From the NCBI GenBank assembly GCA_965261545.1, contig CBDHDF010000007.1, forward strand, positions 64,001-128,000: a stretch of 64,000 nucleotides of DNA, written 5' to 3'. A program made the translations under genes and the position numbers. Shown one piece after another: positions 49,572 through 64,000 of the stretch (positions are counted from its first letter, which is position 1; each line of letters opens with the position of its first letter). Source of the stretch: Bdellovibrionales bacterium. Lineage in GTDB: Bacteria; Bdellovibrionota; Bdellovibrionia; Bdellovibrionales; UBA1609. The notes beneath the pieces were generated by a model. The model had not been told where the DNA came from. It was given only the letters and a program-made list of their open reading frames with translations, and made no database searches.

Positions 49572-50424
49572 CCTTCCCTCCCAGGTTGTTTTCTAGAAGG
49601 TATTTTACAATACGCCTTGTCAGATATTAAATTTTAAATGGCCTGGTTTGCCCGCCCACAAATGGCCTGGTTTGCCCTCCCCTCCGGGCATGGGCTGTGT
49701 CGATCTGTGATAAACGATCTCGACGCTGCTTATCTTCAGCTTCAAGTCGCTCTCGCATAAGTTCGTCTTGAGACAAATTCCACAAATTTTTGACGGCTCT
49801 TCCCATGTCCCTTCCTTTTTTGGCTAGCTCTTGGCTGGTTTGTTGATCCAACTCATCCGATCTCTTTAAGAAATAGCACCATGCTTCACGCTGGTCAACA
49901 AGGCTGTCTAATCTGCCAATGAACTTGTTCAATTCTACAATGACAAATTGCATACCATCGGTGAGCCTCAAATGAGGGTATCTATCCTGCCTCATGCTGC
50001 ATGTGTGGTAATAATCGTTGTCCTTGCGTAGCTCAGGAAGGTCCACAGTACTGAAAACAAGGGAATAAACAGTTCTTAATTTCTCGTATCTTTCTCCTTC
50101 TTTCACTTGATTGGAGTAGACCCGTCCAGCATAGGCAAGAAGGCGATTTGTGAAGTCTCTTTGAGAGACGGTTTGCATCTCCACATTAACAGTTTCATTT
50201 TCGACCCACTCCCCACTGGATAATTGTCGAGAAATGCGAAGCTTCATGTCCAAGATGAAGGTTTTTCCCGAAGGCTTGCTCGCCTCTGAAGAGTTTTCTT
50301 CGGTATCCAAAAGTTGAACATGTTCCACCCGACAACCGGGTGGCAAAGGAAGAAAATCCTGCAACAAAGGCTTGAGCAATTCCTGGTCATGCTTAAAAAA
50401 TGCTTTAAAAGTGTTATCAAGGGT

Positions 50425-51841
50425 CAATGCCGTTTCCTTAAGCCACCACACCCCTCTGCCTCTGCGTTAAGCTATTTCTTTTAAAAGAACTCCCAGCCCT
50501 TTTGATAGACCTTTCATAGCTTCTTTTGAAGTGCCTCCTCTTCTCCATTGAAATCTTCATCAGCAACTTTATCTGCTTCCTAAATTTCTGATAGAGCCCC
50601 GCAACAAAAAGGGGGATGCTATCCATTATGAAATCAAGAATCAGTTTAAAGTTAGGTTTTTTGTAGTCATTTTTTACCAACTGATTCACACTGTCTTCAT
50701 CCTCATTTATGCTCATTTGAATCTTTGTATAATTGAAGAGCCAAAAATAAGAATACAGCTCTTGCAATATTCCATTAAGGCTTGTTGAGTGCCACTGCTC
50801 CATTTTCATTGTCGATGTAAAATCACGAAATGTCGTTTCTATTTCCCAACGACGAGAGTAAAGAGCAACCATATCCTTCTTGTCCAAGGAGCCATGCGGA
50901 AGATTAGTGGCCAAAACAGAGAACTCCCCAGTCTTTGGGTTTTTATACTTATAGAGATGAATGACCACCCCCTCAATAACCATTTGTGAATACCAACCTG
51001 GGCCATTAAATAAATTTACGATGGGGATAAAAGTAGAGCCTCGCTTACAACGCGCAATAAAGAAGTTACTGGCTTGAGCATGGGCCTTAATAATCTCTGT
51101 AGATAAATAAAGCCTATCGTAGAGAGTTATGCTATTACTCTCAAAACTACCTATCATTTGAATAGCATTGGCGATTTCGTTGAGAGCGGGAGAATAGCAA
51201 AGATTCTTTGTCACACCCGATAAAACGTCATAAGCATGAGATAGATACATACGTAAGAAATGAGTTTCCATCTCATTTGGGCAAGGGTACCCACAATAAC
51301 CCTCCTTTAAAAGATCTTTAGAGCGAGGAAGTGCTAATTGGTCGCCATCTATGGCATAGATATAAAAGCCATGAAACGTTTTTCTCAATGGTTCGTAGTC
51401 TGTAATCAGAGATTCAAAGATATTTTTAAAAAATAGGTAAGAAATACTTTGACGTATCTTGCTGAGACTGCTTTTGACTGGCATGAGAAGCAGGTCACCA
51501 AAATGAGTCCATACCGTCTTAAGAGCGATTTGGTAGCCTTCGTAATTTGTTCCGGAAATAAGATAGATAATAGTAAAAAAGAAAATTTGAGGATTAAATT
51601 TTCGATTCCTTTTTTGTTTTTCTGGATCGACAAGGTGCTCTGGCTTGAAGGAAGAATCAAGTTTTGGTAGAATAAAATGGTCATCTGTGACGCGAACTCG
51701 TCATTTGGGGGCTTTCGAGATCAATATTGGATTGCATGTGACTTACTCCTTGGTTGAGGGTTGGGTGTAAAATAAAACAAGTCTTATTCTTGTCGATTTA
51801 TCTAATAATTTCAAGAGATTTTTCTTAAGGAAACGGCATTG
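50425..51841 (-). mobile_element. IS4-family element, copy B
   Basis: Same TIRs as copy A; non-matching flanks. Confidence 0.93.
50438..51484 (-). CDS. IS4-family transposase
   Basis: Near-identical to 16117-17163. Confidence 0.88.
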   Translation of the reverse strand: MPVKSSLSKIRQSISYLFFKNIFESLITDYEPLRKTFHGFYIYAIDGDQLALPRSKDLLKEGYCGYPCPNEMETHFLRMYLSHAYDVLSGVTKNLCYSPALNEIANAIQMIGSFESNSITLYDRLYLSTEIIKAHAQASNFFIARCKRGSTFIPIVNLFNGPGWYSQMVIEGVVIHLYKYKNPKTGEFSVLATNLPHGSLDKKDMVALYSRRWEIETTFRDFTSTMKMEQWHSTSLNGILQELYSYFWLFNYTKIQMSINEDEDSVNQLVKNDYKKPNFKLILDFIMDSIPLFVAGLYQKFRKQIKLLMKISMEKRRHFKRSYERSIKRAGSSFKRNSLTQRQRGVVA

Positions 51842-52369
51842 ACTCCAGACTATACCTGGAATTGACGAATTAAGTGCAGCGCTTTTGATTGCAGAAATAG
51901 GAGGCAATGTGAAGTCTTTTAAAAATAAAGGAAATTTTTGCTCCTGGATGGGGATTTGCCCATCCAATAATGAGAGCGCAGGAAAAAAAGTCTTCACGAA
52001 CGAGGAAAGCGAACACATATGTGAAATCGTTGGTATGTGAGATGGCCAATAGTGCTATTAAGACGAATTCACAATTCAAAGGCAAATACCAATCACTTGT
52101 TATAAGGCGTGGGCACAAGAGATCAGTGATTGCCGTTGGTCACAAAATGATGGGAGTTGTTTATTCAGTCATAAGTAATGACACCCCCTACAAAGACCCT
52201 GGAATTGACTATGAAAAGCTCATGGTGAAAAAAAATGCACCAAGGTGGATTAGAGCGTTAAAAAAGTATGATTTCATGTAATGTAGGATGATTTAAAAAC
52301 TCGGACATTTGAAAAAATTCGAAGAACGGATAGTGGATTCGTGCGTCCAAACTACCCCGGAGATTCATA
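51842..52369 (+). mobile_element. IS110 element 3' half (A7 frameshift allele)
   Basis: Matches the 3' part of 52370-54074 apart from the A-run. Confidence 0.92.
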
Positions 52370-52568
52370 GTAACATTCATGGGGGCGCCTTGCTTCCCCA
52401 CCCACGCCCATGAATCTTATCTAGGCCCCCACTTCTTTGCACGAAGCAACTCGGTGGACAGCTTCGCTGGTCTATATAATTGGCCTCTTTTAGTTACTCT
52501 GGACTTTTGATTGTATTTTTGTCATGTATGATTCCGATACAATAAAGGATAAAGCAATAACATTATTG

Positions 52569-52755
52569 GAAGGTGATAAGATGAGTGGCCGTTGAATAGA
52601 TTGGTAATTTTAATTCCGTGAAGTAACATGGTCTTGAGCTTTGGATCGAACCCACGCATGTACCTGCACTCTGAGTGTATGGACGTATAGTAAGTTGACC
52701 TATTTTCGCTTTAGAATTTATGGCAAAATCCCAAGGCTCTAGTTTTATCACCTTC
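52569..52755 (+). ncRNA. Candidate IS110 bridge RNA (minus-strand copies at 22659-22845, 58534-58720, 60258-60444, 62116-62302, 63818->64000)
   Basis: 11-bp closing stem GAAGGTGATAA/TTATCACCTTC; two inner stem-loops with segments matching the target and donor junctions; directly upstream of the recombinase. Confidence 0.7.
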
Positions 52756-52783
52756 TTTTTTTCTAACAGAAAGGAGGAGTCAT

Positions 52784-53986
52784 GTGGATATTATTTATAG
52801 TTCTGTTTGTGGAATAGATGTTCATCAACATATGTTGATGTGTACGATTGTCAAAGTGGAAGACGGTAAGAAGAAGTTTTTCACAAAAGAGTTCAAGAAT
52901 TTTCCAAAAAATTTTCCTAGAATGCGCTCTTGGATGAAGCCACATAAGGTTGAGAGAGTTCTTTTTGAGAGCACAGGGATTTATTGGAATTCTTTATACG
53001 ATGATTTGACAGAAAAAGGTTATGAAGTAGATGTTATCAATGCCTTTCATGTCAAAAATATTACTGGTAAAAAAACTGACGTGTTGGATAGCCAGTGGAT
53101 TGCAGAGCTTGGTGCTTGTGGTCTTCTAAGAGCTAGCTTCATTCCTCCACGTGAGATTCGTTCTATTAGACTTTTGGCTCGTTATCGTACAAAAACGATC
53201 CGCCAAATATCTTCGGAACAAAATCGTATGTATAAGGTTCTTGAATATTCAGGCATTCGTTTAACCTATGCAATGTCTAAAGCTGACTGCGTATCTGGTA
53301 TGGCCATGATTCGTGCCATAGCTAATGGAGAGAGATCAGTTTCTAAATTGATGTCTCTTGCCAGAGGGTCTTTACGTCAAAAGACCGAAGAATTTTCTTA
53401 CGCCCTGTCGGGAAAGATGACGGAAGAAAATCGTTTTGTTCTTCAACGCATTCTTGATCGAATAGATTTTTTGAAAAAAGAATGCTCTCAAATTGAAGAA
53501 GAACTTTTCATTCGTATGAAACCCTATGAAAGGCAGTGGCATCTACTCCAGACTATACCTGGAATTGACGAATTAAGTGCAGCGCTTTTGATTGCAGAAA
53601 TAGGAGGCAATGTGAAGTCTTTTAAAAATAAAGGAAATTTTTGCTCCTGGATGGGGATTTGCCCATCCAATAATGAGAGCGCAGGAAAAAAAAAGTCTTC
53701 ACGAACGAGGAAAGCGAACACATATGTGAAATCGTTGGTATGTGAGATGGCCAATAGTGCTATTAAGACGAATTCACAATTCAAAGGCAAATACCAATCA
53801 CTTGTTATAAGGCGTGGGCACAAGAGATCAGTGATTGCCGTTGGTCACAAAATGATGGGAGTTGTTTATTCAGTCATAAGTAATGACACCCCCTACAAAG
53901 ACCCTGGAATTGACTATGAAAAGCTCATGGTGAAAAAAAATGCACCAAGGTGGATTAGAGCGTTAAAAAAGTATGATTTCATGTAA
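52784..53986 (+). CDS. IS110-family DEDD recombinase (400 aa)
   Basis: GIDVH, ESTGIYW, KTDVLD, TIPGI and NESAGK motifs; AGGAGG RBS. Confidence 0.95.
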   Translation: MDIIYSSVCGIDVHQHMLMCTIVKVEDGKKKFFTKEFKNFPKNFPRMRSWMKPHKVERVLFESTGIYWNSLYDDLTEKGYEVDVINAFHVKNITGKKTDVLDSQWIAELGACGLLRASFIPPREIRSIRLLARYRTKTIRQISSEQNRMYKVLEYSGIRLTYAMSKADCVSGMAMIRAIANGERSVSKLMSLARGSLRQKTEEFSYALSGKMTEENRFVLQRILDRIDFLKKECSQIEEELFIRMKPYERQWHLLQTIPGIDELSAALLIAEIGGNVKSFKNKGNFCSWMGICPSNNESAGKKKSSRTRKANTYVKSLVCEMANSAIKTNSQFKGKYQSLVIRRGHKRSVIAVGHKMMGVVYSVISNDTPYKDPGIDYEKLMVKKNAPRWIRALKKYDFM

Positions 53987-54348
53987 TGTAGGATGATTTA
54001 AAAACTCGGACATTTGAAAAAATTCGAAGAACGGATAGTGGATTCGTGCGTCCAAACTACCCCGGAGATTCATAGTAACTATTCAGGGGGTGCTGCATTA
54101 ATTCGAACAATTTTTTTAAAAAAAGTATAAAAATTCTTGACAAGTTTTTGAAGCAAACGACCTCTTTCATTTGTTCTTTATCGAATATGTTCCTGCATAT
54201 GCCTTAAACTCTCTGAGAGCCATAGTATTGAAAGATTGTGAAACATAGGTCGCGGGGGGCACTTCTCATTCCTTTTGCTTCTTAGAACGAATCCTAGTGC
54301 ATTTTTTTTAATGAAAAAAAGGCATGTTAATATTTTCATAAGGTAAGT

Positions 54349-55800
54349 ATGAAAATAGAAAATATTGACGTGTCTTCAGCCATAAATAAAATCAGGAAGC
54401 TTCTTAAGAAAGAGAAGTCCCTTTCTCCCGCTTTTATTGTGGCCATTGAGTTGTTGATCAAAATCATCACTATTCTAGTAAATCAAAAAAAATTAAATAG
54501 TCAAAACAGTAGTATTGCCCCTTCTCAAGATCCGAATGGCCCTAAAAAGAAACCTAAGGAAGAAACTGGTAAGAAGCCAGGAGGACAACCCGGACACGAA
54601 GGAGCTACTTTAAAACCCGTGGATACTCCAGACAAGGTGGAGTTCATTTCTATTAATAAAGAGGAACTTCCTCCAGGTGATTACATTTCTTCTGGAGTTG
54701 AAAAGCGTCAAGTATTTGAGGTAGACCTTTCTGTGCATGTCACGGAGTATCAAGGAGAAATCCTCGAAGACCAAGATGGGAATCAGTGGGTTGCAGGTTT
54801 TCCAGAAGGAATCAATAACCCAACTCAATATGGCCCTTCTGTGAAAGCTCACTCAGTTTATATGTCCCAGTTTCAGTTAATCCCTCATCTTCGAGTCGCA
54901 AGTTACTTTAATCAATGGGGTCTATCGCTTGCTGGATCTACGGTACACAATTTTAACAAATCTGCCTTTGAGGCTCTGGAAGCTTTTGAGGAGTGGGCAA
55001 AGGAAACTCTTCTGAACTCACCTTTGATTCATGCTGACGAAACTGGAGTGAATGTTAATGGGAAGAGGCTGTGGTTTCACCTCTTGTCCAATGATACTGT
55101 GGTTCTCTATCAGGTGGACGAAAAAAGAGGCGCAGAGGCTATGGATCGCATGGGAATTCTTCCAAAATACACAGGGATTGTTTGTCATGACCATTGGAAA
55201 CCTTATTATACATATACTTCCTGCATTCATGCCCTTTGCAATGCGCACCATTTAAGGGAGCTTCAAAGAGCTTGGGAGCAAGATGATCAAAAATGGGCAA
55301 AAGAAATGAAGTCTCTTTTAGAGACAATAAACAAAGAGGTGCACGATACGCAGAACCAATGCCTTTCACAAGACCGAATTGAATATTACAAAGAGAAATA
55401 TCGAAATATTCTCTTCGAAGGGGAAAAGGAATCTCCATTAATGGAGAGGACAGAGAAAAAAAAGAAGGGAAAGGTTAAACAATCCAAATCTAGAAATTTA
55501 CTAGATCGACTGAGAAACTTTGAAGATGATACCTTGCTATTTATGAAGGACCCCATAGTTCCATTTACGAATAATATAGCAGAAAATGATCTGAGAATGA
55601 CCAAAGTTCAGCAGAAAATATCTGGGTGCTTTCGTTCGTTGATGGGAGCCAAGACATTTTGTAGAAACCGAAGCTTTCTCCTGACTTGCCAGAAAAATGG
55701 CATAGAACCTAAAGATGCTCTAAATATGCTATTTCAAGGAAAACTTCCCTCATTTATGACTCGAATTCGCCCACCCCCTGAATCAATGCCGTTTCCTTAA
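54349..55800 (+). CDS. IS66 transposase TnpC-like (C-terminus altered by IS4)
   Basis: NSSIAPSQD, GGQPGHEG, HADETG, CNAHHLREL and TNNIAENDLR..K..QKISG motifs. Confidence 0.93.
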   Translation: MKIENIDVSSAINKIRKLLKKEKSLSPAFIVAIELLIKIITILVNQKKLNSQNSSIAPSQDPNGPKKKPKEETGKKPGGQPGHEGATLKPVDTPDKVEFISINKEELPPGDYISSGVEKRQVFEVDLSVHVTEYQGEILEDQDGNQWVAGFPEGINNPTQYGPSVKAHSVYMSQFQLIPHLRVASYFNQWGLSLAGSTVHNFNKSAFEALEAFEEWAKETLLNSPLIHADETGVNVNGKRLWFHLLSNDTVVLYQVDEKRGAEAMDRMGILPKYTGIVCHDHWKPYYTYTSCIHALCNAHHLRELQRAWEQDDQKWAKEMKSLLETINKEVHDTQNQCLSQDRIEYYKEKYRNILFEGEKESPLMERTEKKKKGKVKQSKSRNLLDRLRNFEDDTLLFMKDPIVPFTNNIAENDLRMTKVQQKISGCFRSLMGAKTFCRNRSFLLTCQKNGIEPKDALNMLFQGKLPSFMTRIRPPPESMPFP

Positions 55801-57200
55801 GAAAAATCTCTTGAAATCATTAGATAAATCGACAAGAATAAGACTTGTTTTATTTTACACCCAACCCTCAACCAAGGAGTAAGTCACATGCAATCCAATA
55901 TTGATCTCGAAAGCCCCCAAATGACGAGTTCGCGTCACAGATGACCATTTTATTCTACCAAAACTTGATTCTTCCTTCAAGCCAGAGCACCTTGTCGATC
56001 CAGAAAAACAAAAAAGGAATCGAAAATTTAATCCTCAAATTTTCTTTTTTACCATTATCTATCTTATTTCCGGAACAAATTACGAAGGCTACCAAATCGC
56101 TCTTAAGACGGTATGGACTCATTTTGGTGACCTGCTTCTCATGCCAGTCAAAAGCAGTCTCAGCAAGATACGTCAAAGTATTTCTTACCTATTTTTCAAA
56201 GATATCTTTGAATCTCTGATTACAGACTACGAACCATTGAGAAAAACGTTTCATGGTTTTTATATCTATGCCATAGATGGCGACCAATTAGCACTTCCTC
56301 GCTCTAAAGATCTTTTAAAGGAGGGTTATTGTGGGTACCCTTGCCCAAATGAGATGGAAACTCATTTCTTACGTATGTATCTATCTCATGCTTATGACGT
56401 TTTATCGGGTGTGACAAAGAATCTTTGCTATTCTCCCGCTCTCAACGAAATCGCCAATGCTATTCAAATGATAGGTAGTTTTGAGAGTAATAGCATAACT
56501 CTCTACGATAGGCTTTATTTATCTACAGAGATTATTAAGGCCCATGCTCAAGCCAGTAACTTCTTTATTGCGCGTTGTAAGCGAGGCTCTACTTTTATCC
56601 CCATTGTAAATTTATTTAATGGCCCAGGTTGGTATTCACGAATGGTTATTGAGGGGGTGGTCATTCATCTCTATAAGTATAAAAACCCAAAGACTGGGGA
56701 GTTCTCTGTTTTGGCCACTAATCTTCCGCATGGCTCCTTGGACAAGAAGGATATGGTTGCTCTTTACTCTCGTCGTTGGGAAATAGAAACGACATTTCGT
56801 GATTTTACATCGACAATGAAAATGGAGCAGTGGCACTCAACAAGCCTTAATGGAATATTGCAAGAGCTGTATTCTTATTTTTGGCTCTTCAATTATACAA
56901 AGATTCAAATGAGCATAAATGAGGATGAAGACAGTGTGAATCAGTTGGTAAAAAATGACTACAAAAAACCTAACTTTAAACTGATTCTTGATTTCATAAT
57001 GGATAGCATCCCTCTTTTTGTTGCGGGGCTCTATCAGAAATTTAGGAAGCAGATAAAGTTGCTGATGAAGATTTCAATGGAGAAGAGGAGGCACTTCAAA
57101 AGAAGCTATGAAAGGTCTATCAAAAGGGCTGGGAGTTCTTTTAAAAGAAATAGCTTAACGCAGAGGCAGAGGGGTGTGGTGGCTTAAGGAAACGGCATTG
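55784..57200 (+). mobile_element. IS4-family element, copy D
   Basis: TIRs as copy A; 10-bp TSD CCCCCTGAAT at 55774-55783 and 57201-57210. Confidence 0.95.
56141..57187 (+). CDS. IS4-family transposase
   Basis: Near-identical to the other copies. Confidence 0.88.
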   Translation: MPVKSSLSKIRQSISYLFFKDIFESLITDYEPLRKTFHGFYIYAIDGDQLALPRSKDLLKEGYCGYPCPNEMETHFLRMYLSHAYDVLSGVTKNLCYSPALNEIANAIQMIGSFESNSITLYDRLYLSTEIIKAHAQASNFFIARCKRGSTFIPIVNLFNGPGWYSRMVIEGVVIHLYKYKNPKTGEFSVLATNLPHGSLDKKDMVALYSRRWEIETTFRDFTSTMKMEQWHSTSLNGILQELYSYFWLFNYTKIQMSINEDEDSVNQLVKNDYKKPNFKLILDFIMDSIPLFVAGLYQKFRKQIKLLMKISMEKRRHFKRSYERSIKRAGSSFKRNSLTQRQRGVVA

Positions 57201-57216
57201 CCCCCTGAATAGTTAC

Positions 57217-58918
57217 TATGAATCTCCGGGGTAGTTTGGACGCACGAATCCACTATCCGTTCTTCGAATTTTTTCAAATGTCCGAGTTTTTAAATCATCC
57301 TACATTACATGAAATCATACTTTTTTAACGCTCTAATCCACCTTGGTGCATTTTTTTTCACCATGAGCTTTTCATAGTCAATTCCAGGGTCTTTGTAGGG
57401 GGTGTCATTACTTATGACTGAATAAACAACTCCCATCATTTTGTGACCAACGGCAATCACTGATCTCTTGTGCCCACGCCTTATAACAAGTGATTGGTAT
57501 TTGCCTTTGAATTGTGAATTCGTCTTAATAGCACTATTGGCCATCTCACATACCAACGATTTCACATATGTGTTCGCTTTCCTCGTTCGTGAAGACTTTT
57601 TTTCCTGCGCTCTCATTATTGGATGGGCAAATCCCCATCCAGGAGCAAAAATTTCCTTTATTTTTAAAAGACTTCACATTGCCTCCTATTTCTGCAATCA
57701 AAAGCGCTGCACTTAATTCGTCAATTCCAGGTATAGTCTGGAGTAGATGCCACTGCCTTTCATAGGGTTTCATACGAATGAAAAGTTCTTCTTCAATTTG
57801 AGAGCATTCTTTTTTCAAAAAATCTATTCGATCAAGAATGCGTTGAAGAACAAAACGATTTTCTTCCGTCATCTTTCCCGACAGGGCGTAAGAAAATTCT
57901 TCGGTCTTTTGACGTAAAGACCCTCTGGCAAGAGACATCAATTTAGAAACTGATCTCTCTCCATTAGCTATGGCACGAATCATGGCCATACCAGATACGC
58001 AGTCAGCTTTAGACATTGCATAGGTTAAACGAATGCCTGAATATTCAAGAACCTTATACATACGATTTTGTTCCGAAGATATTTGGCGGATCGTTTTTGT
58101 ACGATAACGAGCCAAAAGTCTAATAGAACGAATCTCACGTGGAGGAATGAAGCTAGCTCTTAGAAGACCACAAGCACCAAGCTCTGCAATCCACTGGCTA
58201 TCCAACACGTCAGTTTTTTTACCAGTAATATTTTTGACATGAAAGGCATTGATAACATCTACTTCATAACCTTTTTCTGTCAAATCATCGTATAAAGAAT
58301 TCCAATAAATCCCTGTGCTCTCAAAAAGAACTCTCTCAACCTTATGTGGCTTCATCCAAGAGCGCATTCTAGGAAAATTTTTTGGAAAATTCTTGAACTC
58401 TTTTGTGAAAAACTTCTTCTTACCGTCTTCCACTTTGACAATCGTACACATCAACATATGTTGATGAACATCTATTCCACAAACAGAACTATAAATAATA
58501 TCCACATGACTCCTCCTTTCTGTTAGAAAAAAAGAAGGTGATAAAACTAGAGCCTTGGGATTTTGCCATAAATTCTAAAGCGAAAATAGGTCAACTTACT
58601 ATACGTCCATACACTCAGAGTGCAGGTACATGCGTGGGTTCGATCCAAAGCTCAAGACCATGTTACTTCACGGAATTAAAATTACCAATCTATTCAACGG
58701 CCACTCATCTTATCACCTTCCAATAATGTTATTGCTTTATCCTTTATTGTATCGGAATCATACATGACAAAAATACCATCAAAAGTCCAGAGTAACTAAA
58801 AGAGGCCAATTATATAGACCAGCGAAGCTGTCCACCGAGTTGCTTCGTGCAAAGAAGTGGGGGCCTAGAAAGATTCATGGGCGTGGGTGGGGAAGCAAGG
58901 CGCCCCCATGAATGTTAC
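57217..58918 (-). mobile_element. IS110 array copy 1 (1702 bp; recombinase 58505-57305 frameshifted)
   Basis: Reverse complement of 52370-54074; A7 instead of A9. Confidence 0.93.
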
Positions 58919-58940
58919 TATGAATCTCCGGGGTAGTTAC
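58919..58940 (-). repeat. 22-bp IS110 right-end stub
   Basis: TATGAATCTCCGGGGTAGTTAC between copies 1 and 2. Confidence 0.9.
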
Positions 58941-60642
58941 TATGAATCTCCGGGGTAGTTTGGACGCACGAATCCACTATCCGTTCTTCGAATTTTTTCA
59001 AATGTCCGAGTTTTTAAATCATCCTACATTACATGAAATCATACTTTTTTAACGCTCTAATCCACCTTGGTGCATTTTTTTTCACCATGAGCTTTTCATA
59101 GTCAATTCCAGGGTCTTTGTAGGGGGTGTCATTACTTATGACTGAATAAACAACTCCCATCATTTTGTGACCAACGGCAATCACTGATCTCTTGTGCCCA
59201 CGCCTTATAACAAGTGATTGGTATTTGCCTTTGAATTGTGAATTCGTCTTAATAGCACTATTGGCCATCTCACATACCAACGATTTCACATATGTGTTCG
59301 CTTTCCTCGTTCGTGAAGACTTTTTTTCCTGCGCTCTCATTATTGGATGGGCAAATCCCCATCCAGGAGCAAAAATTTCCTTTATTTTTAAAAGACTTCA
59401 CATTGCCTCCTATTTCTGCAATCAAAAGCGCTGCACTTAATTCGTCAATTCCAGGTATAGTCTGGAGTAGATGCCACTGCCTTTCATAGGGTTTCATACG
59501 AATGAAAAGTTCTTCTTCAATTTGAGAGCATTCTTTTTTCAAAAAATCTATTCGATCAAGAATGCGTTGAAGAACAAAACGATTTTCTTCCGTCATCTTT
59601 CCCGACAGGGCGTAAGAAAATTCTTCGGTCTTTTGACGTAAAGACCCTCTGGCAAGAGACATCAATTTAGAAACTGATCTCTCTCCATTAGCTATGGCAC
59701 GAATCATGGCCATACCAGATACGCAGTCAGCTTTAGACATTGCATAGGTTAAACGAATGCCTGAATATTCAAGAACCTTATACATACGATTTTGTTCCGA
59801 AGATATTTGGCGGATCGTTTTTGTACGATAACGAGCCAAAAGTCTAATAGAACGAATCTCACGTGGAGGAATGAAGCTAGCTCTTAGAAGACCACAAGCA
59901 CCAAGCTCTGCAATCCACTGGCTATCCAACACGTCAGTTTTTTTACCAGTAATATTTTTGACATGAAAGGCATTGATAACATCTACTTCATAACCTTTTT
60001 CTGTCAAATCATCGTATAAAGAATTCCAATAAATCCCTGTGCTCTCAAAAAGAACTCTCTCAACCTTATGTGGCTTCATCCAAGAGCGCATTCTAGGAAA
60101 ATTTTTTGGAAAATTCTTGAACTCTTTTGTGAAAAACTTCTTCTTACCGTCTTCCACTTTGACAATCGTACACATCAACATATGTTGATGAACATCTATT
60201 CCACAAACAGAACTATAAATAATATCCACATGACTCCTCCTTTCTGTTAGAAAAAAAGAAGGTGATAAAACTAGAGCCTTGGGATTTTGCCATAAATTCT
60301 AAAGCGAAAATAGGTCAACTTACTATACGTCCATACACTCAGAGTGCAGGTACATGCGTGGGTTCGATCCAAAGCTCAAGACCATGTTACTTCACGGAAT
60401 TAAAATTACCAATCTATTCAACGGCCACTCATCTTATCACCTTCCAATAATGTTATTGCTTTATCCTTTATTGTATCGGAATCATACATGACAAAAATAC
60501 CATCAAAAGTCCAGAGTAACTAAAAGAGGCCAATTATATAGACCAGCGAAGCTGTCCACCGAGTTGCTTCGTGCAAAGAAGTGGGGGCCTAGAAAGATTC
60601 ATGGGCGTGGGTGGGGAAGCAAGGCGCCCCCATGAATGTTAC
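58941..60642 (-). mobile_element. IS110 array copy 2 (frameshifted)
   Basis: As copy 1. Confidence 0.93.
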
Positions 60643-60798
60643 TATGAATCTCCGGGGTAGTTTGGACGCACGAATCCACTATCCGTTCTTCGAATTTTTT
60701 CAAATGTCCGAGTTTTTAAATCATCCTACATTACATGAAATCATACTTTTTTAACGCTCTAATCCACCTTGGTGCATTTTTTTTCACCATGAGCTTAC
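60643..60798 (-). repeat. 156-bp IS110 right-end stub
   Basis: Right-end sequence up to CACCATGAGCTT, then AC and the next copy. Confidence 0.9.
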
Positions 60799-62500
60799 TA
60801 TGAATCTCCGGGGTAGTTTGGACGCACGAATCCACTATCCGTTCTTCGAATTTTTTCAAATGTCCGAGTTTTTAAATCATCCTACATTACATGAAATCAT
60901 ACTTTTTTAACGCTCTAATCCACCTTGGTGCATTTTTTTTCACCATGAGCTTTTCATAGTCAATTCCAGGGTCTTTGTAGGGGGTGTCATTACTTATGAC
61001 TGAATAAACAACTCCCATCATTTTGTGACCAACGGCAATCACTGATCTCTTGTGCCCACGCCTTATAACAAGTGATTGGTATTTGCCTTTGAATTGTGAA
61101 TTCGTCTTAATAGCACTATTGGCCATCTCACATACCAACGATTTCACATATGTGTTCGCTTTCCTCGTTCGTGAAGACTTTTTTTCCTGCGCTCTCATTA
61201 TTGGATGGGCAAATCCCCATCCAGGAGCAAAAATTTCCTTTATTTTTAAAAGACTTCACATTGCCTCCTATTTCTGCAATCAAAAGCGCTGCACTTAATT
61301 CGTCAATTCCAGGTATAGTCTGGAGTAGATGCCACTGCCTTTCATAGGGTTTCATACGAATGAAAAGTTCTTCTTCAATTTGAGAGCATTCTTTTTTCAA
61401 AAAATCTATTCGATCAAGAATGCGTTGAAGAACAAAACGATTTTCTTCCGTCATCTTTCCCGACAGGGCGTAAGAAAATTCTTCGGTCTTTTGACGTAAA
61501 GACCCTCTGGCAAGAGACATCAATTTAGAAACTGATCTCTCTCCATTAGCTATGGCACGAATCATGGCCATACCAGATACGCAGTCAGCTTTAGACATTG
61601 CATAGGTTAAACGAATGCCTGAATATTCAAGAACCTTATACATACGATTTTGTTCCGAAGATATTTGGCGGATCGTTTTTGTACGATAACGAGCCAAAAG
61701 TCTAATAGAACGAATCTCACGTGGAGGAATGAAGCTAGCTCTTAGAAGACCACAAGCACCAAGCTCTGCAATCCACTGGCTATCCAACACGTCAGTTTTT
61801 TTACCAGTAATATTTTTGACATGAAAGGCATTGATAACATCTACTTCATAACCTTTTTCTGTCAAATCATCGTATAAAGAATTCCAATAAATCCCTGTGC
61901 TCTCAAAAAGAACTCTCTCAACCTTATGTGGCTTCATCCAAGAGCGCATTCTAGGAAAATTTTTTGGAAAATTCTTGAACTCTTTTGTGAAAAACTTCTT
62001 CTTACCGTCTTCCACTTTGACAATCGTACACATCAACATATGTTGATGAACATCTATTCCACAAACAGAACTATAAATAATATCCACATGACTCCTCCTT
62101 TCTGTTAGAAAAAAAGAAGGTGATAAAACTAGAGCCTTGGGATTTTGCCATAAATTCTAAAGCGAAAATAGGTCAACTTACTATACGTCCATACACTCAG
62201 AGTGCAGGTACATGCGTGGGTTCGATCCAAAGCTCAAGACCATGTTACTTCACGGAATTAAAATTACCAATCTATTCAACGGCCACTCATCTTATCACCT
62301 TCCAATAATGTTATTGCTTTATCCTTTATTGTATCGGAATCATACATGACAAAAATACCATCAAAAGTCCAGAGTAACTAAAAGAGGCCAATTATATAGA
62401 CCAGCGAAGCTGTCCACCGAGTTGCTTCGTGCAAAGAAGTGGGGGCCTAGAAAGATTCATGGGCGTGGGTGGGGAAGCAAGGCGCCCCCATGAATGTTAC
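60799..62500 (-). mobile_element. IS110 array copy 3 (frameshifted)
   Basis: As copy 1. Confidence 0.93.
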
Positions 62501-64000
62501 TATGAATCTCCGGGGTAGTTTGGACGCACGAATCCACTATCCGTTCTTCGAATTTTTTCAAATGTCCGAGTTTTTAAATCATCCTACATTACATGAAATC
62601 ATACTTTTTTAACGCTCTAATCCACCTTGGTGCATTTTTTTTCACCATGAGCTTTTCATAGTCAATTCCAGGGTCTTTGTAGGGGGTGTCATTACTTATG
62701 ACTGAATAAACAACTCCCATCATTTTGTGACCAACGGCAATCACTGATCTCTTGTGCCCACGCCTTATAACAAGTGATTGGTATTTGCCTTTGAATTGTG
62801 AATTCGTCTTAATAGCACTATTGGCCATCTCACATACCAACGATTTCACATATGTGTTCGCTTTCCTCGTTCGTGAAGACTTTTTTTCCTGCGCTCTCAT
62901 TATTGGATGGGCAAATCCCCATCCAGGAGCAAAAATTTCCTTTATTTTTAAAAGACTTCACATTGCCTCCTATTTCTGCAATCAAAAGCGCTGCACTTAA
63001 TTCGTCAATTCCAGGTATAGTCTGGAGTAGATGCCACTGCCTTTCATAGGGTTTCATACGAATGAAAAGTTCTTCTTCAATTTGAGAGCATTCTTTTTTC
63101 AAAAAATCTATTCGATCAAGAATGCGTTGAAGAACAAAACGATTTTCTTCCGTCATCTTTCCCGACAGGGCGTAAGAAAATTCTTCGGTCTTTTGACGTA
63201 AAGACCCTCTGGCAAGAGACATCAATTTAGAAACTGATCTCTCTCCATTAGCTATGGCACGAATCATGGCCATACCAGATACGCAGTCAGCTTTAGACAT
63301 TGCATAGGTTAAACGAATGCCTGAATATTCAAGAACCTTATACATACGATTTTGTTCCGAAGATATTTGGCGGATCGTTTTTGTACGATAACGAGCCAAA
63401 AGTCTAATAGAACGAATCTCACGTGGAGGAATGAAGCTAGCTCTTAGAAGACCACAAGCACCAAGCTCTGCAATCCACTGGCTATCCAACACGTCAGTTT
63501 TTTTACCAGTAATATTTTTGACATGAAAGGCATTGATAACATCTACTTCATAACCTTTTTCTGTCAAATCATCGTATAAAGAATTCCAATAAATCCCTGT
63601 GCTCTCAAAAAGAACTCTCTCAACCTTATGTGGCTTCATCCAAGAGCGCATTCTAGGAAAATTTTTTGGAAAATTCTTGAACTCTTTTGTGAAAAACTTC
63701 TTCTTACCGTCTTCCACTTTGACAATCGTACACATCAACATATGTTGATGAACATCTATTCCACAAACAGAACTATAAATAATATCCACATGACTCCTCC
63801 TTTCTGTTAGAAAAAAAGAAGGTGATAAAACTAGAGCCTTGGGATTTTGCCATAAATTCTAAAGCGAAAATAGGTCAACTTACTATACGTCCATACACTC
63901 AGAGTGCAGGTACATGCGTGGGTTCGATCCAAAGCTCAAGACCATGTTACTTCACGGAATTAAAATTACCAATCTATTCAACGGCCACTCATCTTATCAC
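62501..64000 (-). mobile_element. IS110 array copy 4 (frameshifted; runs off window)
   Basis: As copy 1, directly head-to-tail with copy 3. Confidence 0.92.

What the first reader, a model, noticed from the sequence alone, without database searches (positions are those of the whole stretch)
52569..52755. Candidate bridge RNA with four readable guide segments
Seen: an 11-bp stem closes 187 nt. Loop 1 (GGCC 52587 / GGTC 52630) carries TGAATAG (52593-52599), the reverse complement of the IS66 TIR CTATTCA. It also carries TGAAGTAAC (52619-52627), identical to the reconstructed left target plus core. Loop 2 (GAGCTTTGG 52636 / CCAAGGCTC 52739) carries CCCACGCATGT (52651-52661), 9/11 to the reverse complement of the left end (CCCATGAATGT). 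It also carries ATAGTAA (52687-52693), identical to right end plus core. Known: the IS621 bridge RNA has separate target- and donor-binding loops. Inference: these are those loops, with the right guide before the left guide (opposite to IS621) and with a larger 400-aa recombinase. Folding was done by eye and the matches are short.
Basis: partly seen in the sequence, partly recalled or inferred. Interest (0 to 1): 0.85.

Follow-up and report, generated by a model that had tools for sequence, protein, structure and literature searches.

The report
Bridge RNA of an IS110 element
The flagged stretch is the guide ("bridge") RNA gene of a multi-copy IS110-family jumping gene that aims itself at the end repeats of other jumping genes; such RNAs are known, but this family carries its guide segments in the opposite order to the textbook example IS621.

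Summary
Window 52569-52755 lies in the long left end of an intact IS110-family element (52374-54078; 400-aa DEDD/Tnp recombinase, distant homologue of IS621 transposase). A covariance model of the region finds the same RNA just upstream of the recombinase gene in 92 related loci, and the stems carry compensatory changes. Three of the four guide segments are supported by guide-to-flank covariation. TGAATAG is the complement of the right target. (GAA)GTAAC copies the left target plus an AA core, followed by two bases of the element's left end, like a handshake guide. ATAGTAA copies the right end plus core. The fourth, CCCACGCATGT, lies on a family-conserved motif and a stem and shows no covariation. 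The order, top-strand complement 5' and bottom-strand complement 3' in both loops, is family-wide. It is opposite to IS621 and ISEc21 and matches IS1111-type seekRNAs, although the RNA lies upstream of the gene. In this genome the element occupies 14 of 32 GTAA|CTATTCAGGGGG ends of other insertion sequences. Bridge RNAs and many structural variants are already published, so this is a variant of a known kind. This scan noted the same element before, on another piece of this genome. No RNA data were available.

The parts
52374..54078 (+). IS110-family element, this copy 1705 bp (other copies 1702). It runs from the first base after the AA core of the left junction to the AA core of the right junction. 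The boundary is ambiguous within the shared GTAAC (52370-52374 and 54075-54079).
   Evidence: The genome holds 25 full-length copies among 60 matches. There are 56 left and 35 right ends with variable flanks. The spacing of the repeats is given.
52569..52755 (+). Bridge RNA core, closed by stem P1 (52569-52582 with 52742-52755).
   Evidence: Fold z = -2.79. In 31 aligned relatives, 38 of 44 pairs show compensatory change, 79.7% of cells are paired against 67.7% in shuffles, and the covariation score is 0.369 against at most 0.137 for slid partners. Model R1 scores 69.8 bits here.
52587..52633 (+). Target-binding module: stem P2 (52587-52592 with 52628-52633) enclosing an internal loop and hairpin P3 (52602-52618).
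   Evidence: P2 is 94% paired and P3 82% paired, both with compensatory changes. Pair positions are mapped onto the window.
52593..52601 (+). X1, the 5' strand of loop 1 (UGAAUAGAU): the right-target guide. UGAAUAG is the complement of the top strand C-TATTCA directly 3' of the core.
   Evidence: 14 of 37 right ends in the genome abut CTATTCAGGGGG. In the family, 19 of 39 families have a complementary run of 5 nt or more to their own rebuilt target, against 9.4% of non-cognate pairs. For runs of 7 nt or more the figures are 6 of 39 against 0.4%. The same-sense control gives 2 of 39 against 7.6%.
52619..52628 (+). X2, the 3' strand of loop 1 (UGAAGUAACA): left-target guide GAAGU (52620-52624), core AA (52625-52626), then CA (52627-52628), which equals the first two bases of the element's left end and so resembles a handshake guide.
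   Evidence: A same-sense run of 8 nt or more to the DNA upstream occurs in 50 of 81 guide sets, against 1.9% of non-cognate pairs. After a unique 7-nt left-target-plus-core match, the next two DNA bases equal the next two RNA bases in 95% and 92% of 38 families (39% and 43% expected). Bases +3 and +4 are at background.
52636..52739 (+). Donor-binding module: stem P4 (52636-52644 with 52731-52739) enclosing X3, hairpin P5 (52659-52685), X4 and a further hairpin P6 (about 52698-52726), which makes it a multi-loop.
   Evidence: All 10 P4 pairs show compensatory change. P5 is 96% paired, and one of its pairs reads CG:14, UA:13, AU:3.
52645..52658 (+). X3, the 5' strand of loop 2 (AUCGAACCCACGCA): a family-conserved motif of unknown role.
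   Evidence: CG-ACCCC is invariant in 31 sequences. There is no cognate signal: complementary runs of 5 nt or more in 5 of 39 families against 11.7%, no diagonal in 60 families, and mean z of -0.12 to 0.01 in 61 families.
52686..52697 (+). X4, the strand 3' of P5 (UAUAGUAAGUUG): left-donor guide AUAGU (52687-52691) plus core AA (52692-52693). It is identical to the right end ..CATAGTAA.
   Evidence: A same-sense run of 8 nt or more to the DNA downstream of the stop codon occurs in 43 of 72 guide sets, against 4.0% of non-cognate pairs. Examples of the variable bases changing together with the right end (ACGG, ACGT, ACGC, ACAT, ACAG, ATGT, ATGG, ATAG) are.
52784..53986 (+). Recombinase gene, 400 aa, GTG start. 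Catalytic residues D12, E62, D99, D102 and S299 are inferred.
   Evidence: PF01548 at 4.8e-23 and PF02371 at 4e-21. IS621 transposase 8wt6_A at E 2.7e-15 and ISCro4 at 1.5e-13. D12, E62 and D99 are invariant, and D102 and S299 at least 90% conserved, in 29 homologues.
52376..52414 (+). Left-end hairpin: TTCATGGGGGCG (52376-52387) with CGCCCATGAA (52405-52414). The arrangement TCATG..CACCCC..CATGA is conserved in relatives.
   Evidence: Read directly. The rc match is listed and the family alignment is.
54066..54073 (+). AGATTCAT near the right end, an inverted repeat of ATGAATCT at 52410-52417 in the left end (a sub-terminal inverted repeat).
   Evidence: One search lists the rc match. The mini-elements carry the compensatory pair ATGAATGTT / AACATTCAT.
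51827..52373 (+). The 3' 547 nt of another copy of the element, joined head to tail to this copy.
54079..54095 (+). Right target: CTATTCAGGGGGTGCTG, the outer end of an insertion sequence that encodes an IS66-family transposase (54349-55800).
   Evidence: PF03050 at 1.6e-49. Empty copies of this end are always preceded by GTAA.

Best explanation
Window 52569-52755 encodes the bridge RNA of the IS110-family element at 52374-54078. The RNA folds into a long closing stem and two modules.

Loop 1 reads the insertion site. [quoted passage not shown] That strand continues with two bases matching the element's own left end, as a handshake guide would after strand exchange.

Loop 2 reads the element's joined ends. 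[quoted passage not shown] How the left-end half of the donor is read was not found.

The 400-aa DEDD/Ser recombinase, guided by this RNA, recombines the circular form into GTAA|CTATTCAGGGGG, the outer end of several other insertion sequences. The right junction recreates GT-AA-CTATTCA, so further copies insert there and build head-to-tail arrays.

Compared with IS621 the guides are in mirror order in both loops. The simplest reading is the same kind of complex with the recombination site inverted relative to the RNA and recombinase genes. Read on the other strand the core is TT or CT, with an invariant T, as in IS621's CT.

Shown here: sequence, structure covariation, guide-to-flank covariation and site occupancy. 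Inferred: that the RNA is made, that it binds the recombinase, the order of strand exchange and the origin of the arrays.
For: Protein: IS110 domains; homology to IS621 and ISCro4 transposases of solved bridge-recombinase complexes; conserved D, E, D, D and S residues.

RNA: the fold is better than 200 of 200 shuffles. The consensus of 31 relatives has 38 of 44 pairs with compensatory change and a covariation score of 0.369 against at most 0.137 for slid partners. The covariance model finds the RNA on the gene's strand within 250 nt upstream of the recombinase gene in 92 loci.

Guides:
- X4 against the right end: 43 of 72 against 4.0%.
- X2 against the left junction: 50 of 81 against 1.9%.
- X1 complement against the rebuilt target: 19 of 39 against 9.4% for runs of 5 nt or more, and 6 of 39 against 0.4% for 7 nt or more. 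The same-sense control is flat. A mismatch-tolerant test gives mean z of 0.62-0.64 against about 0 for same sense.
- Two-base handshake-like extension of X2: 95% and 92% against 39% and 43% in 38 families.

Core: the first base is A in 74 of 74 families and the second is A in 38 and G in 36. X2 and X4 carry the same core in 62 of 69 families. Both DNA junctions carry the same dinucleotide in 40 of 42.

This genome: 14 of 32 GTAAC+TATTCAGGGGG sites are occupied. 0 of 13 GTATC+TATTCAGGGGG sites and 0 of 10 GTAAC+TGTTCAGGGGG sites are occupied (Fisher p 0.004 and 0.017). 10 of 37 right ends are followed by the element's own left end.

Published order for IS621: LTG A50-U58 lies 5' and RTG G77-G80 plus HSG 81-82 lie 3'; LDG 123-130 lies 5' and RDG 157-165 lies 3' (passages of PMC11208158; PMC11208160). 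For IS1111 seekRNAs the top-strand match precedes the bottom-strand match, and the order is reversed in ISEc21 (passages of PMC11187229).
Against: - There is no evidence that the RNA exists. No RNA run was listed, no sigma-70-like promoter or terminator was found in 52250-52850, and Rfam 15 gave no match.
- The right-donor guide expected for a full bridge RNA was not found.
- The single-sequence minimum-energy fold does not form P2 and P3 as the family does; the family structure is 1.7 kcal/mol less stable.
- In single-copy relatives the junctions were located by the guide match itself, so the tests are partly circular. Searches are not.
- Relatives share ancestry, and the occupied or empty sites are copies of a few insertion-sequence families, so the p values overstate the evidence.
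- In one clade (L043, L048, L112 and L120, for example) X1 does not match the observed right flank.
- The left-target guide beyond GT is not used in this genome.
Confidence: 0.85

Rival explanations
1. A structured 5' leader that only controls translation or stability of the recombinase mRNA. On this reading the short matches to the ends and the target are chance.
For: Over the whole left end, exact 7-mers are at chance level, and an unrelated TAGTTAC match exists at 52491-52497. The 3' strand of P1 ends 18 nt before the ribosome-binding site. There is no transcript evidence either way.
Against: The loop segments change together with each relative's own flanks: 43 of 72 against 4.0%, 50 of 81 against 1.9%, and 19 of 39 against 9.4%. 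A leader has no reason to do this. The protein is homologous to recombinases solved with bridge RNA.
Confidence: 0.03
2. The internal copies of the junction sequences act as DNA, for example as recombinase-binding or recombination half-sites inside the element, and not as RNA guides.
For: One genomic copy is inserted exactly inside the X4-coding DNA of another copy (..GGACGTATAGTAA|C). So this DNA can serve as a half-site.
Against: The segments always lie in single-stranded loops of a fold whose stems show compensatory changes. They lie on the strand of the gene in 92 loci. Strand-specific logic (one complement, one copy, a shared core, a two-base extension) matches RNA guides.
Confidence: 0.04
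3. An ordinary IS621-type bridge RNA with left guides 5' and right guides 3'. On this reading the apparent mirror order comes from wrong loop or boundary assignment.
For: Boundaries in most relatives were inferred, not taken from empty sites. The 5'-strand guides (X1, X3) are the weaker or missing ones.
Against: In this genome the boundaries are fixed by 25 full copies and 18 empty sites. The left-flank copy (52619-52627) and the right-end copy (52687-52693) lie 3' of hairpins P3 and P5, inside stems P2 and P4, which have strong covariation. The same-sense and complement controls go the expected way.
Confidence: 0.04
4. The RNA family is real, but the copies in this genome are decaying relics that no longer move. 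On this reading the arrays come from homologous recombination or assembly error.
For: 14 of 30 protein matches in the genome stop at residue 306, at an A-run, and many fragments exist.
Against: 9 of 30 matches cover residues 1-400 without a stop. Copies are 99-100% identical, which points to recent spread. Insertions sit at the same position in at least four different target element types. Homopolymer length is error-prone in long-read assemblies, so the frameshifts may not be real.
Confidence: 0.04

Closest known systems
IS621 bridge RNA and recombinase (IS110 group). Durrant et al. 2024, PMC11208160; Hiraizumi et al. 2024, PMC11208158. Passages read.
   Same: - A DEDD plus Ser recombinase, homologous at E 2.7e-15.
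- The RNA is encoded in the long left end, upstream of the gene.
- Two stem-closed loops, one for the target and one for the donor.
- Each loop holds one segment per DNA strand, overlapping a shared core dinucleotide.
- A two-base extension after the 3' guide matches the other DNA.
- Read on the other strand, the core is YT with an invariant T, like IS621's CT.
   Different: - The guide order is mirrored in both loops. Here the top-strand (right) complement is 5' and the bottom-strand (left) copy is 3'.
- The handshake-like bases follow the left-target guide and match the right donor.
- The donor module is a three-way junction with an extra hairpin.
- No right-donor guide was found.
- The protein is 400 aa against 326 aa.
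- The left end is 410 nt, and the RNA starts about 195 nt from the end.
- No junction promoter was recognised.
IS1111-type seekRNAs (ISEc11, ISPa11, ISKpn4). Siddiquee et al. 2024, PMC11187229, passages read; table in the review PMC13604230.
   Same: - The top-strand complement lies 5' of the bottom-strand complement.
- A sub-terminal inverted repeat is present (54066-54073 with 52410-52417).
- Donor-binding bases lie in a multi-loop, as Durrant et al. describe for many IS1111 members.
   Different: - The non-coding region and the RNA are upstream of the recombinase gene, not downstream.
- The left arm of the inverted repeat lies about 37 nt inside the left end.
IS4321 / IS5075 (IS1111 family). 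[quoted passage not shown]
   Same: An IS110-family element whose natural target is the terminal inverted repeat of other mobile elements.
   Different: The targets here are the ends of insertion sequences that begin GTAACTATTCAGGGGG. The subgroup layout is different. The paper itself was not read.
CazIS110-1. bioRxiv 10.1101/2025.10.25.684509, passages read.
   Same: Tandem repeats of the element arise during IS110-type transposition (3 of 96 colonies in that study).
   Different: There the tandem repeats were transient by-products. Here head-to-tail arrays of up to four or more units persist in the genome, and the regenerated target at the right junction gives a simple cause (inference).
The catalogue of 86 bridge-RNA covariance models over 32,190 loci. 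bioRxiv 10.64898/2026.10.21.760802; section 2.4 and other passages read; supplements closed.
   Same: It is stated there that many bridge RNA models deviate visibly from the IS621 structure yet covary with their targets and donors. This family may be among them.
   Different: The text I read does not mention a mirrored guide order. I could not compare models.

Membership tests
IS110-family DEDD recombinase (bridge recombinase) | N-terminal DEDD RuvC-like domain (PF01548) followed by the Tnp domain (PF02371) | tested here: met
   4.8e-23 (residues 9-154) and 4e-21 (residues 253-338).
IS110-family DEDD recombinase (bridge recombinase) | Sequence homology to a recombinase solved with its bridge RNA | tested here: met
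   IS621 transposase 8wt6_A at E 2.7e-15 and ISCro4 9t56_A at 1.5e-13, with two aligned stretches each.
IS110-family DEDD recombinase (bridge recombinase) | Catalytic acidic residues and the Tnp-domain serine are conserved | tested here: met
   D12, E62 and D99 are invariant, and D102 and S299 at least 90% conserved, in 29 homologues. S299 aligns with the ES of IS621 ..RRYESGSS... Equating this with the published S241 is my inference.
Bridge RNA (as defined on IS621) | Non-coding RNA encoded in the long non-coding end next to the recombinase gene, on the same strand | tested here: met
   Model R1 hits lie on the + strand within 250 nt upstream of the gene in 92 loci.
Bridge RNA (as defined on IS621) | Two stem-closed loops supported by covariation | tested here: met
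   38 of 44 pairs have changes on both sides; 0 of 500 shuffles reach the observed values.
Bridge RNA (as defined on IS621) | The first loop pairs with both strands of the target around a core | tested here: met
   X2: 50 of 81 against 1.9%. X1: 19 of 39 against 9.4%.
Bridge RNA (as defined on IS621) | The second loop pairs with both halves of the donor (the joined ends) | tested here: inconclusive
   The left-donor half is met (X4: 43 of 72 against 4.0%). No right-donor guide was found.
Bridge RNA (as defined on IS621) | The same core dinucleotide occurs in target, donor and guides | tested here: met
   X2 and X4 carry the same core in 62 of 69 families, and both junctions carry the same dinucleotide in 40 of 42. 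The core is AA or AG.
Bridge RNA (as defined on IS621) | [quoted passage not shown] | tested here: not met
   The order is mirrored in both loops. It is compared with the nucleotide numbers in PMC11208158.
Bridge RNA (as defined on IS621) | A two-base handshake guide after the 3' guide that matches the non-cognate DNA | tested here: met
   95% and 92% against 39% and 43% in the target loop, in mirrored form. In the donor loop only the first base is weakly enriched (0.52 against 0.39).
Bridge RNA (as defined on IS621) | The RNA is transcribed, bound by the recombinase and reprogrammable | not testable with these tools
   No RNA run was listed. This needs bench work.
Bridge RNA (as defined on IS621) | A match to a curated RNA family | tested here: not met
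   Rfam 15 found nothing relevant in 51500-54500 at E up to 1. I do not know whether Rfam 15 holds a bridge RNA family.
IS1111 group (seekRNA type) | Long non-coding region and RNA downstream of the recombinase gene | tested here: not met
   Here there are 410 nt upstream and 92 nt downstream of the gene. The relatives have the same layout.
IS1111 group (seekRNA type) | The top-strand complement lies 5' of the bottom-strand complement | tested here: met
   The criterion comes from PMC11187229.
IS1111 group (seekRNA type) | Sub-terminal inverted repeats of 7-17 bp | tested here: inconclusive
   An 8-bp inverted repeat joins 54066-54073 and 52410-52417, with a compensatory variant in the mini-elements. 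The left arm is about 37 nt inside the end. This was not measured across the family.

The most novel reading that the evidence does not exclude
This RNA represents a large clade of upstream-encoded bridge RNAs, found in 92 loci from many phyla. In this clade the recombination site is inverted relative to the RNA and recombinase genes. It would be a third layout beside the IS621 type and the IS1111 type.

This reading predicts that the first strand exchanged is the one complementary to the recombinase coding strand. It also predicts that the left-end half of the donor is not read by a contiguous RNA guide. Instead it would be read through the conserved left-end DNA hairpin (TCATG..CACCCC..CATGA) and the conserved CGnACCCC loop motif. 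If so, only three programmable segments set specificity.
Probability: 0.3. Interest if true: 0.65.

Novelty: new variant of a known kind. Interest (0 to 1): 0.45.

Why it matters
Bridge recombinases are being engineered as programmable tools for inserting DNA, and almost all mechanistic knowledge comes from IS621 and close relatives.

- **Mirror-order clade.** A clade with the guides in mirror order, a mirrored handshake and no evident fourth guide would show which features of the complex are fixed and which can be permuted. It would also make testable what decides which strand is exchanged first.
- **Natural specificity experiment.** Sites that differ by one base in the core (GTATC) or in the right target (TGTTCA) are never occupied in this genome, while 14 of 32 cognate sites are.
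- **Self-propagating arrays.** The right junction regenerates the target, which would explain the head-to-tail arrays.
- **Mini-elements.** The 105-bp mini-elements suggest that the end sequences alone suffice for mobilisation in trans.

For the biology of this genome, the element is one mobile element that inserts into the end repeats of other insertion sequences.

Tried and rejected
- **RNA evidence.** The look-up of sequencing runs listed no RNA holder, only four DNA-type runs of one study. I did not lay reads, because contigs cannot show a transcript and the arrays already contain the circle junction.
- **Rfam.** No relevant match.
- **Promoter and terminator scan.** None found in 52250-52850.
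- **Close relatives.** The single-protein scan of genome contigs found none. A search of 60 related genomes found only homologues at 32-35% identity, and the model does not hit their loci. The relatives at 67-80% identity seen as proteins were not recovered as DNA.
- **Full-length covariance model.** I used a 119-position model instead.
- **Right-donor guide.** I searched for it in several ways, and none gave a cognate signal:
  - exact runs in both senses against donor and target;
  - a position-by-position matrix in 60 families;
  - a 5-mer scan of the whole leader, whose one striking hit, a 10-nt match in L048, stood alone;
  - the linker and the 5' strand of P4;
  - mismatch-tolerant windows.
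  A same-sense resemblance between the X3/P5 strand and the left-end start was seen by eye in some relatives (ATTGC, ATGAA, CTTGTCA). It was not significant: 7 of 39 against 12.6%.
- **Handshake in the donor loop.** Only the first base is weakly enriched. Some offsets in that script were wrong for X2, and supersedes it.
- **Naming the closest insertion sequence.** The plasmid records only say 'IS110 family transposase'.
- **Control on a canonical-order family.** The second IS110-type element of this genome aligned too poorly to fix its ends. I abandoned it, so the IS621 order rests on the papers.
- **Placement in the IS110 / IS1111 protein tree.** Not done, because no labelled reference sequences were available.
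- **Literature.** A search for a described swapped guide order found 2 papers, neither about this.
- **Timed-out scripts.** timed out and were rewritten.
Full report
**What is at the coordinates.** The stretch lies in the 410-nt non-coding left end of a 1705-bp element. Its only long ORF (52784-53986, GTG start, 400 aa) carries the two IS110-family domains: PF01548 at 4.8e-23 and PF02371 at 4e-21. By sequence it is a distant homologue of the IS621 and ISCro4 transposases, which were solved in complex with bridge RNA (E 2.7e-15 and 1.5e-13). D12, E62 and D99 are invariant, and D102 and S299 at least 90% conserved, in 29 homologues. S299 aligns with the serine region of IS621; equating it with the published catalytic S241 is my inference.

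**The element and its target in this genome.** The window is part of an 11-contig, 4.3-Mb genome. The element gives 60 matches there, 25 of them full length and 99-100% identical. Aligning the ends (my first coordinates were off by a few bases, see below) shows two things:
- Left flanks are variable DNA followed by GTAAC.
- Right flanks are mostly C-TATTCAGGGGG.

GTAAC is at 52370-52374 and at 54075-54079. With the AA core derived below, the element runs from 52374 to 54078.

Of 37 right ends found with an exact 15-mer:
- 14 abut CTATTCAGGGGG;
- 10 abut the element's own left end, giving head-to-tail arrays;
- 3 abut near-cognate sites;
- 10 abut other sequences.

Empty sites show that GTAAC+TATTCAGGGGG is the outer end of at least four different repeated elements. 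One of them, downstream of this copy, encodes an IS66-family transposase (PF03050 at 1.6e-49). That IS66-family ends usually begin with GTAA is recalled, not tested.

Occupancy:
- 14 of 32 exact cognate sites are occupied.
- 0 of 13 GTATC+TATTCAGGGGG sites are occupied (Fisher p 0.004).
- 0 of 10 GTAAC+TGTTCAGGGGG sites are occupied (p 0.017).

These sites are copies of a few element families, so the p values overstate the evidence.

**Is there a conserved RNA?** The 187 nt fold better than 200 of 200 shuffles (z = -2.79). Homologous recombinases at 32-48% identity were collected as 159 loci. In those at about 40% identity or more, the DNA upstream of the gene aligns with the window over the whole flagged region.

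A consensus of 31 sequences gives a closing stem P1, a first module (P2, internal loop, hairpin P3) and a second module (P4, hairpin P5, a further hairpin P6). On that structure:
- 79.7% of cells pair, against 67.7% in shuffles;
- 38 of 44 pairs have changes on both sides;
- the covariation score is 0.369, against at most 0.137 when partners are slid by 1 to 3 columns.

After keeping one + strand match per locus within 250 nt upstream of the gene, 92 loci remain. Many other loci lack upstream DNA. Forcing the family structure on the window sequence costs 1.7 kcal/mol relative to the minimum-energy fold (-50.6 against -52.3). It puts 52593-52601 (X1) and 52619-52627 (X2) on the two strands of one internal loop. 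It puts 52645-52658 (X3) and 52686-52697 (X4) on either side of hairpin P5.

**Do the loop segments read the flanks?** Each relative's own flanks were compared with all non-cognate pairings:
- **X4** has a same-sense run of 8 nt or more in the 330 nt after the stop codon in 43 of 72 guide sets, against 4.0% of non-cognate pairs. The reverse-complement control gives 0 of 72.
- **X2** has a same-sense run of 8 nt or more in the 330 nt upstream of the RNA in 50 of 81 guide sets, against 1.9%.

The variable bases ACGG, ACGT, ACGC, ACAT, ACAG, ATGT, ATGG and ATAG before TAA/CAA/AAA in X4 change together with the right end.

With junctions placed by these matches, targets were rebuilt for 39 families. 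The complement of **X1** has a run of 5 nt or more in 19 of 39 families against 9.4%, and of 7 nt or more in 6 of 39 against 0.4%. The same-sense control is flat: 2 of 39 against 7.6%. A mismatch-tolerant score gives mean z of 0.62-0.64 against about 0. Close relatives L183 and L178 show a compensatory change: AAGGTCGA against AAGGCCG. In one clade (L043, L048, L112, L120) X1 does not match the observed right flank. These may be half-matched insertions, or the inferred flank may be wrong.

**Core and handshake.** Both X2 and X4 contain an invariant A followed by A or G. The first base is A in 74 of 74 families; the second is A in 38 and G in 36. The two loops carry the same dinucleotide in 62 of 69 families, and both DNA junctions carry the same dinucleotide in 40 of 42. 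For a test that is not circular, I placed the left junction with a unique exact 7-nt match to left target plus core only. The next two DNA bases, which are the first two of the element, then equal the next two bases of X2 in 95% and 92% of 38 families (39% and 43% expected). Bases +3 and +4 are at background. This is the pattern of the two-base handshake guide of IS621 (passage of PMC11208158). Here, however, it follows the left-target guide. In the donor loop only the first base after the core is weakly enriched for the right target (0.52 against 0.39).

**The fourth segment.** X3 is conserved: CG-ACCCC is invariant in 31 sequences. None of the following gave a cognate signal:
- exact runs in either sense;
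- a position matrix in 60 families;
- a 5-mer scan of the whole leader;
- the linker and P4 strand;
- windowed scores in 61 families.

The window's 9 of 11 is the highest value in the 30 families listed there, where the others score 4 to 8. It rests largely on the conserved CCC of the motif meeting this element's GGGGG run. Its single-sequence shuffle p is 0.015. I therefore treat it as unsupported, not as disproved. How the left-end half of the donor is recognised remains open. The left end starts with a conserved hairpin (52376-52387 with 52405-52414; TCATG..CACCCC..CATGA in relatives). The distal arm of that hairpin is also an inverted repeat of the sub-terminal right end (52410-52417 with 54066-54073).

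[quoted passage not shown] The right guides (RTG G77-G80, RDG 157-165) with the handshake bases are on the 3' side (passages of PMC11208158 and PMC11208160). Here the copies of the left flank and of the right end lie 3' of P3 and P5, and the complement of the right target lies 5'.

Siddiquee et al. report top-strand match before bottom-strand match for IS1111-type seekRNAs, which lie downstream of the gene. They report the reverse for the upstream-encoded ISEc21 (passages of PMC11187229; table in PMC13604230). This family therefore combines the IS1111-type order, a sub-terminal inverted repeat and a multi-loop donor module with the upstream position of the IS110 type.

A simple reconciliation, which is inference: the complex is the same as for IS621, but the recombination site is inverted relative to the genes. 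Read on the other strand, the core is TT or CT with an invariant T. That matches what is stated for IS621's CT core.

**Novelty.** Left-end bridge RNAs have been an established feature of the family since 2024. A 2026 preprint reports 86 covariance models over 32,190 loci, many deviating from the IS621 structure (section 2.4 read; supplements closed). A search for a described swapped order found 2 papers, neither on the point. I cannot exclude that figures or supplements I could not see show it. An earlier follow-up of this scan, on another piece of the same genome, reached the same basic reading: an ordinary left-end bridge RNA whose target is the end repeat of another jumping gene (e1-3589645).

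**Limits.** There is no transcript evidence, no recognisable promoter and no Rfam match. Junctions in single-copy relatives were inferred from the guides. Relatives and target copies are not independent. The canonical order was taken from papers, not re-derived, because a control attempt failed.

Noticed in passing
G000 C11:725855, C6:3548, C3:20872, C2:289191(-), C2:233574(-), C10:576455 (own genome, outside the window): Six copies of a mini-element of about 105 bp. Each has the left-end hairpin of the IS, about 50 nt of unrelated AT-rich filler, and ..AAACATTCATAGTAAC, which equals the right end plus core. They have no RNA gene and no recombinase. They sit at GTAAC|T.. sites or next to full copies. 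They are probably non-autonomous derivatives mobilised in trans.
   Followed up: partly
G000 C2:301625(-), C6:99932 and others: Palindromes of 42-49 nt, GTAAC-ATTCATGGGGGCG..CGCCCATGAAT-GTTAC. This is the left-end hairpin flanked by inverted GTAAC. Their origin is unknown.
   Followed up: no
G000 C10:1020987(-) and C10:1009933(-); also C11:727663 and C2:233574: One copy is inserted exactly inside the DNA that encodes the left-donor guide of another copy (..GGACGTATAGTAA|C). Others are inserted at ..GAAGCAA|CTCGGTGG inside the left end. So guide-coding or core-like DNA serves as a half-matched site.
   Followed up: partly
window 57200-64000 (- strand) and 51827-54079: Head-to-tail arrays of the element with a period of 1702 bp. 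The right junction recreates GT-AA-CTATTCA, so each insertion regenerates its own target. This would explain the arrays (inference).
   Followed up: partly
window 53686-53694 and 51983-51989: An A-run lies directly after the codon of the putative catalytic serine. It is A9 in this intact copy and A7 in the partial copy upstream. 14 of 30 protein matches in the genome stop at residue 306 and only 9 cover residues 1-400. This is either real slippage or homopolymer error of a long-read assembly.
   Followed up: no
window 50417-51845 (-) and 55780-57208 (+): Two inverted copies of a 1429-bp insertion sequence with a DDE_Tnp_1 transposase. One truncates the IS66-type element. Its end ..GGCATTGCCCCCTGAATA|GTTAC is itself a target of the IS110 element.
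   Followed up: partly
G000 C7:469153, C11:753766, C7:187106: A second, different IS110-family element type occurs in the same genome (PF01548 at E 7.6e-15). Its left end begins TCTGGAGGCATGG. Its RNA was not analysed.
   Followed up: partly
window 52491-52497: TAGTTAC, the complement of GTAACTA (left target, core and the first right-target bases), lies in the part of the left end upstream of the conserved RNA. It is at chance level, and that region is not conserved in relatives.
   Followed up: no
L048:about 400-412: In one relative the 3' strand of P1 carries a 10-nt complement (CTTCCGCCTT) of its own right flank. It stands alone among the loci examined.
   Followed up: partly
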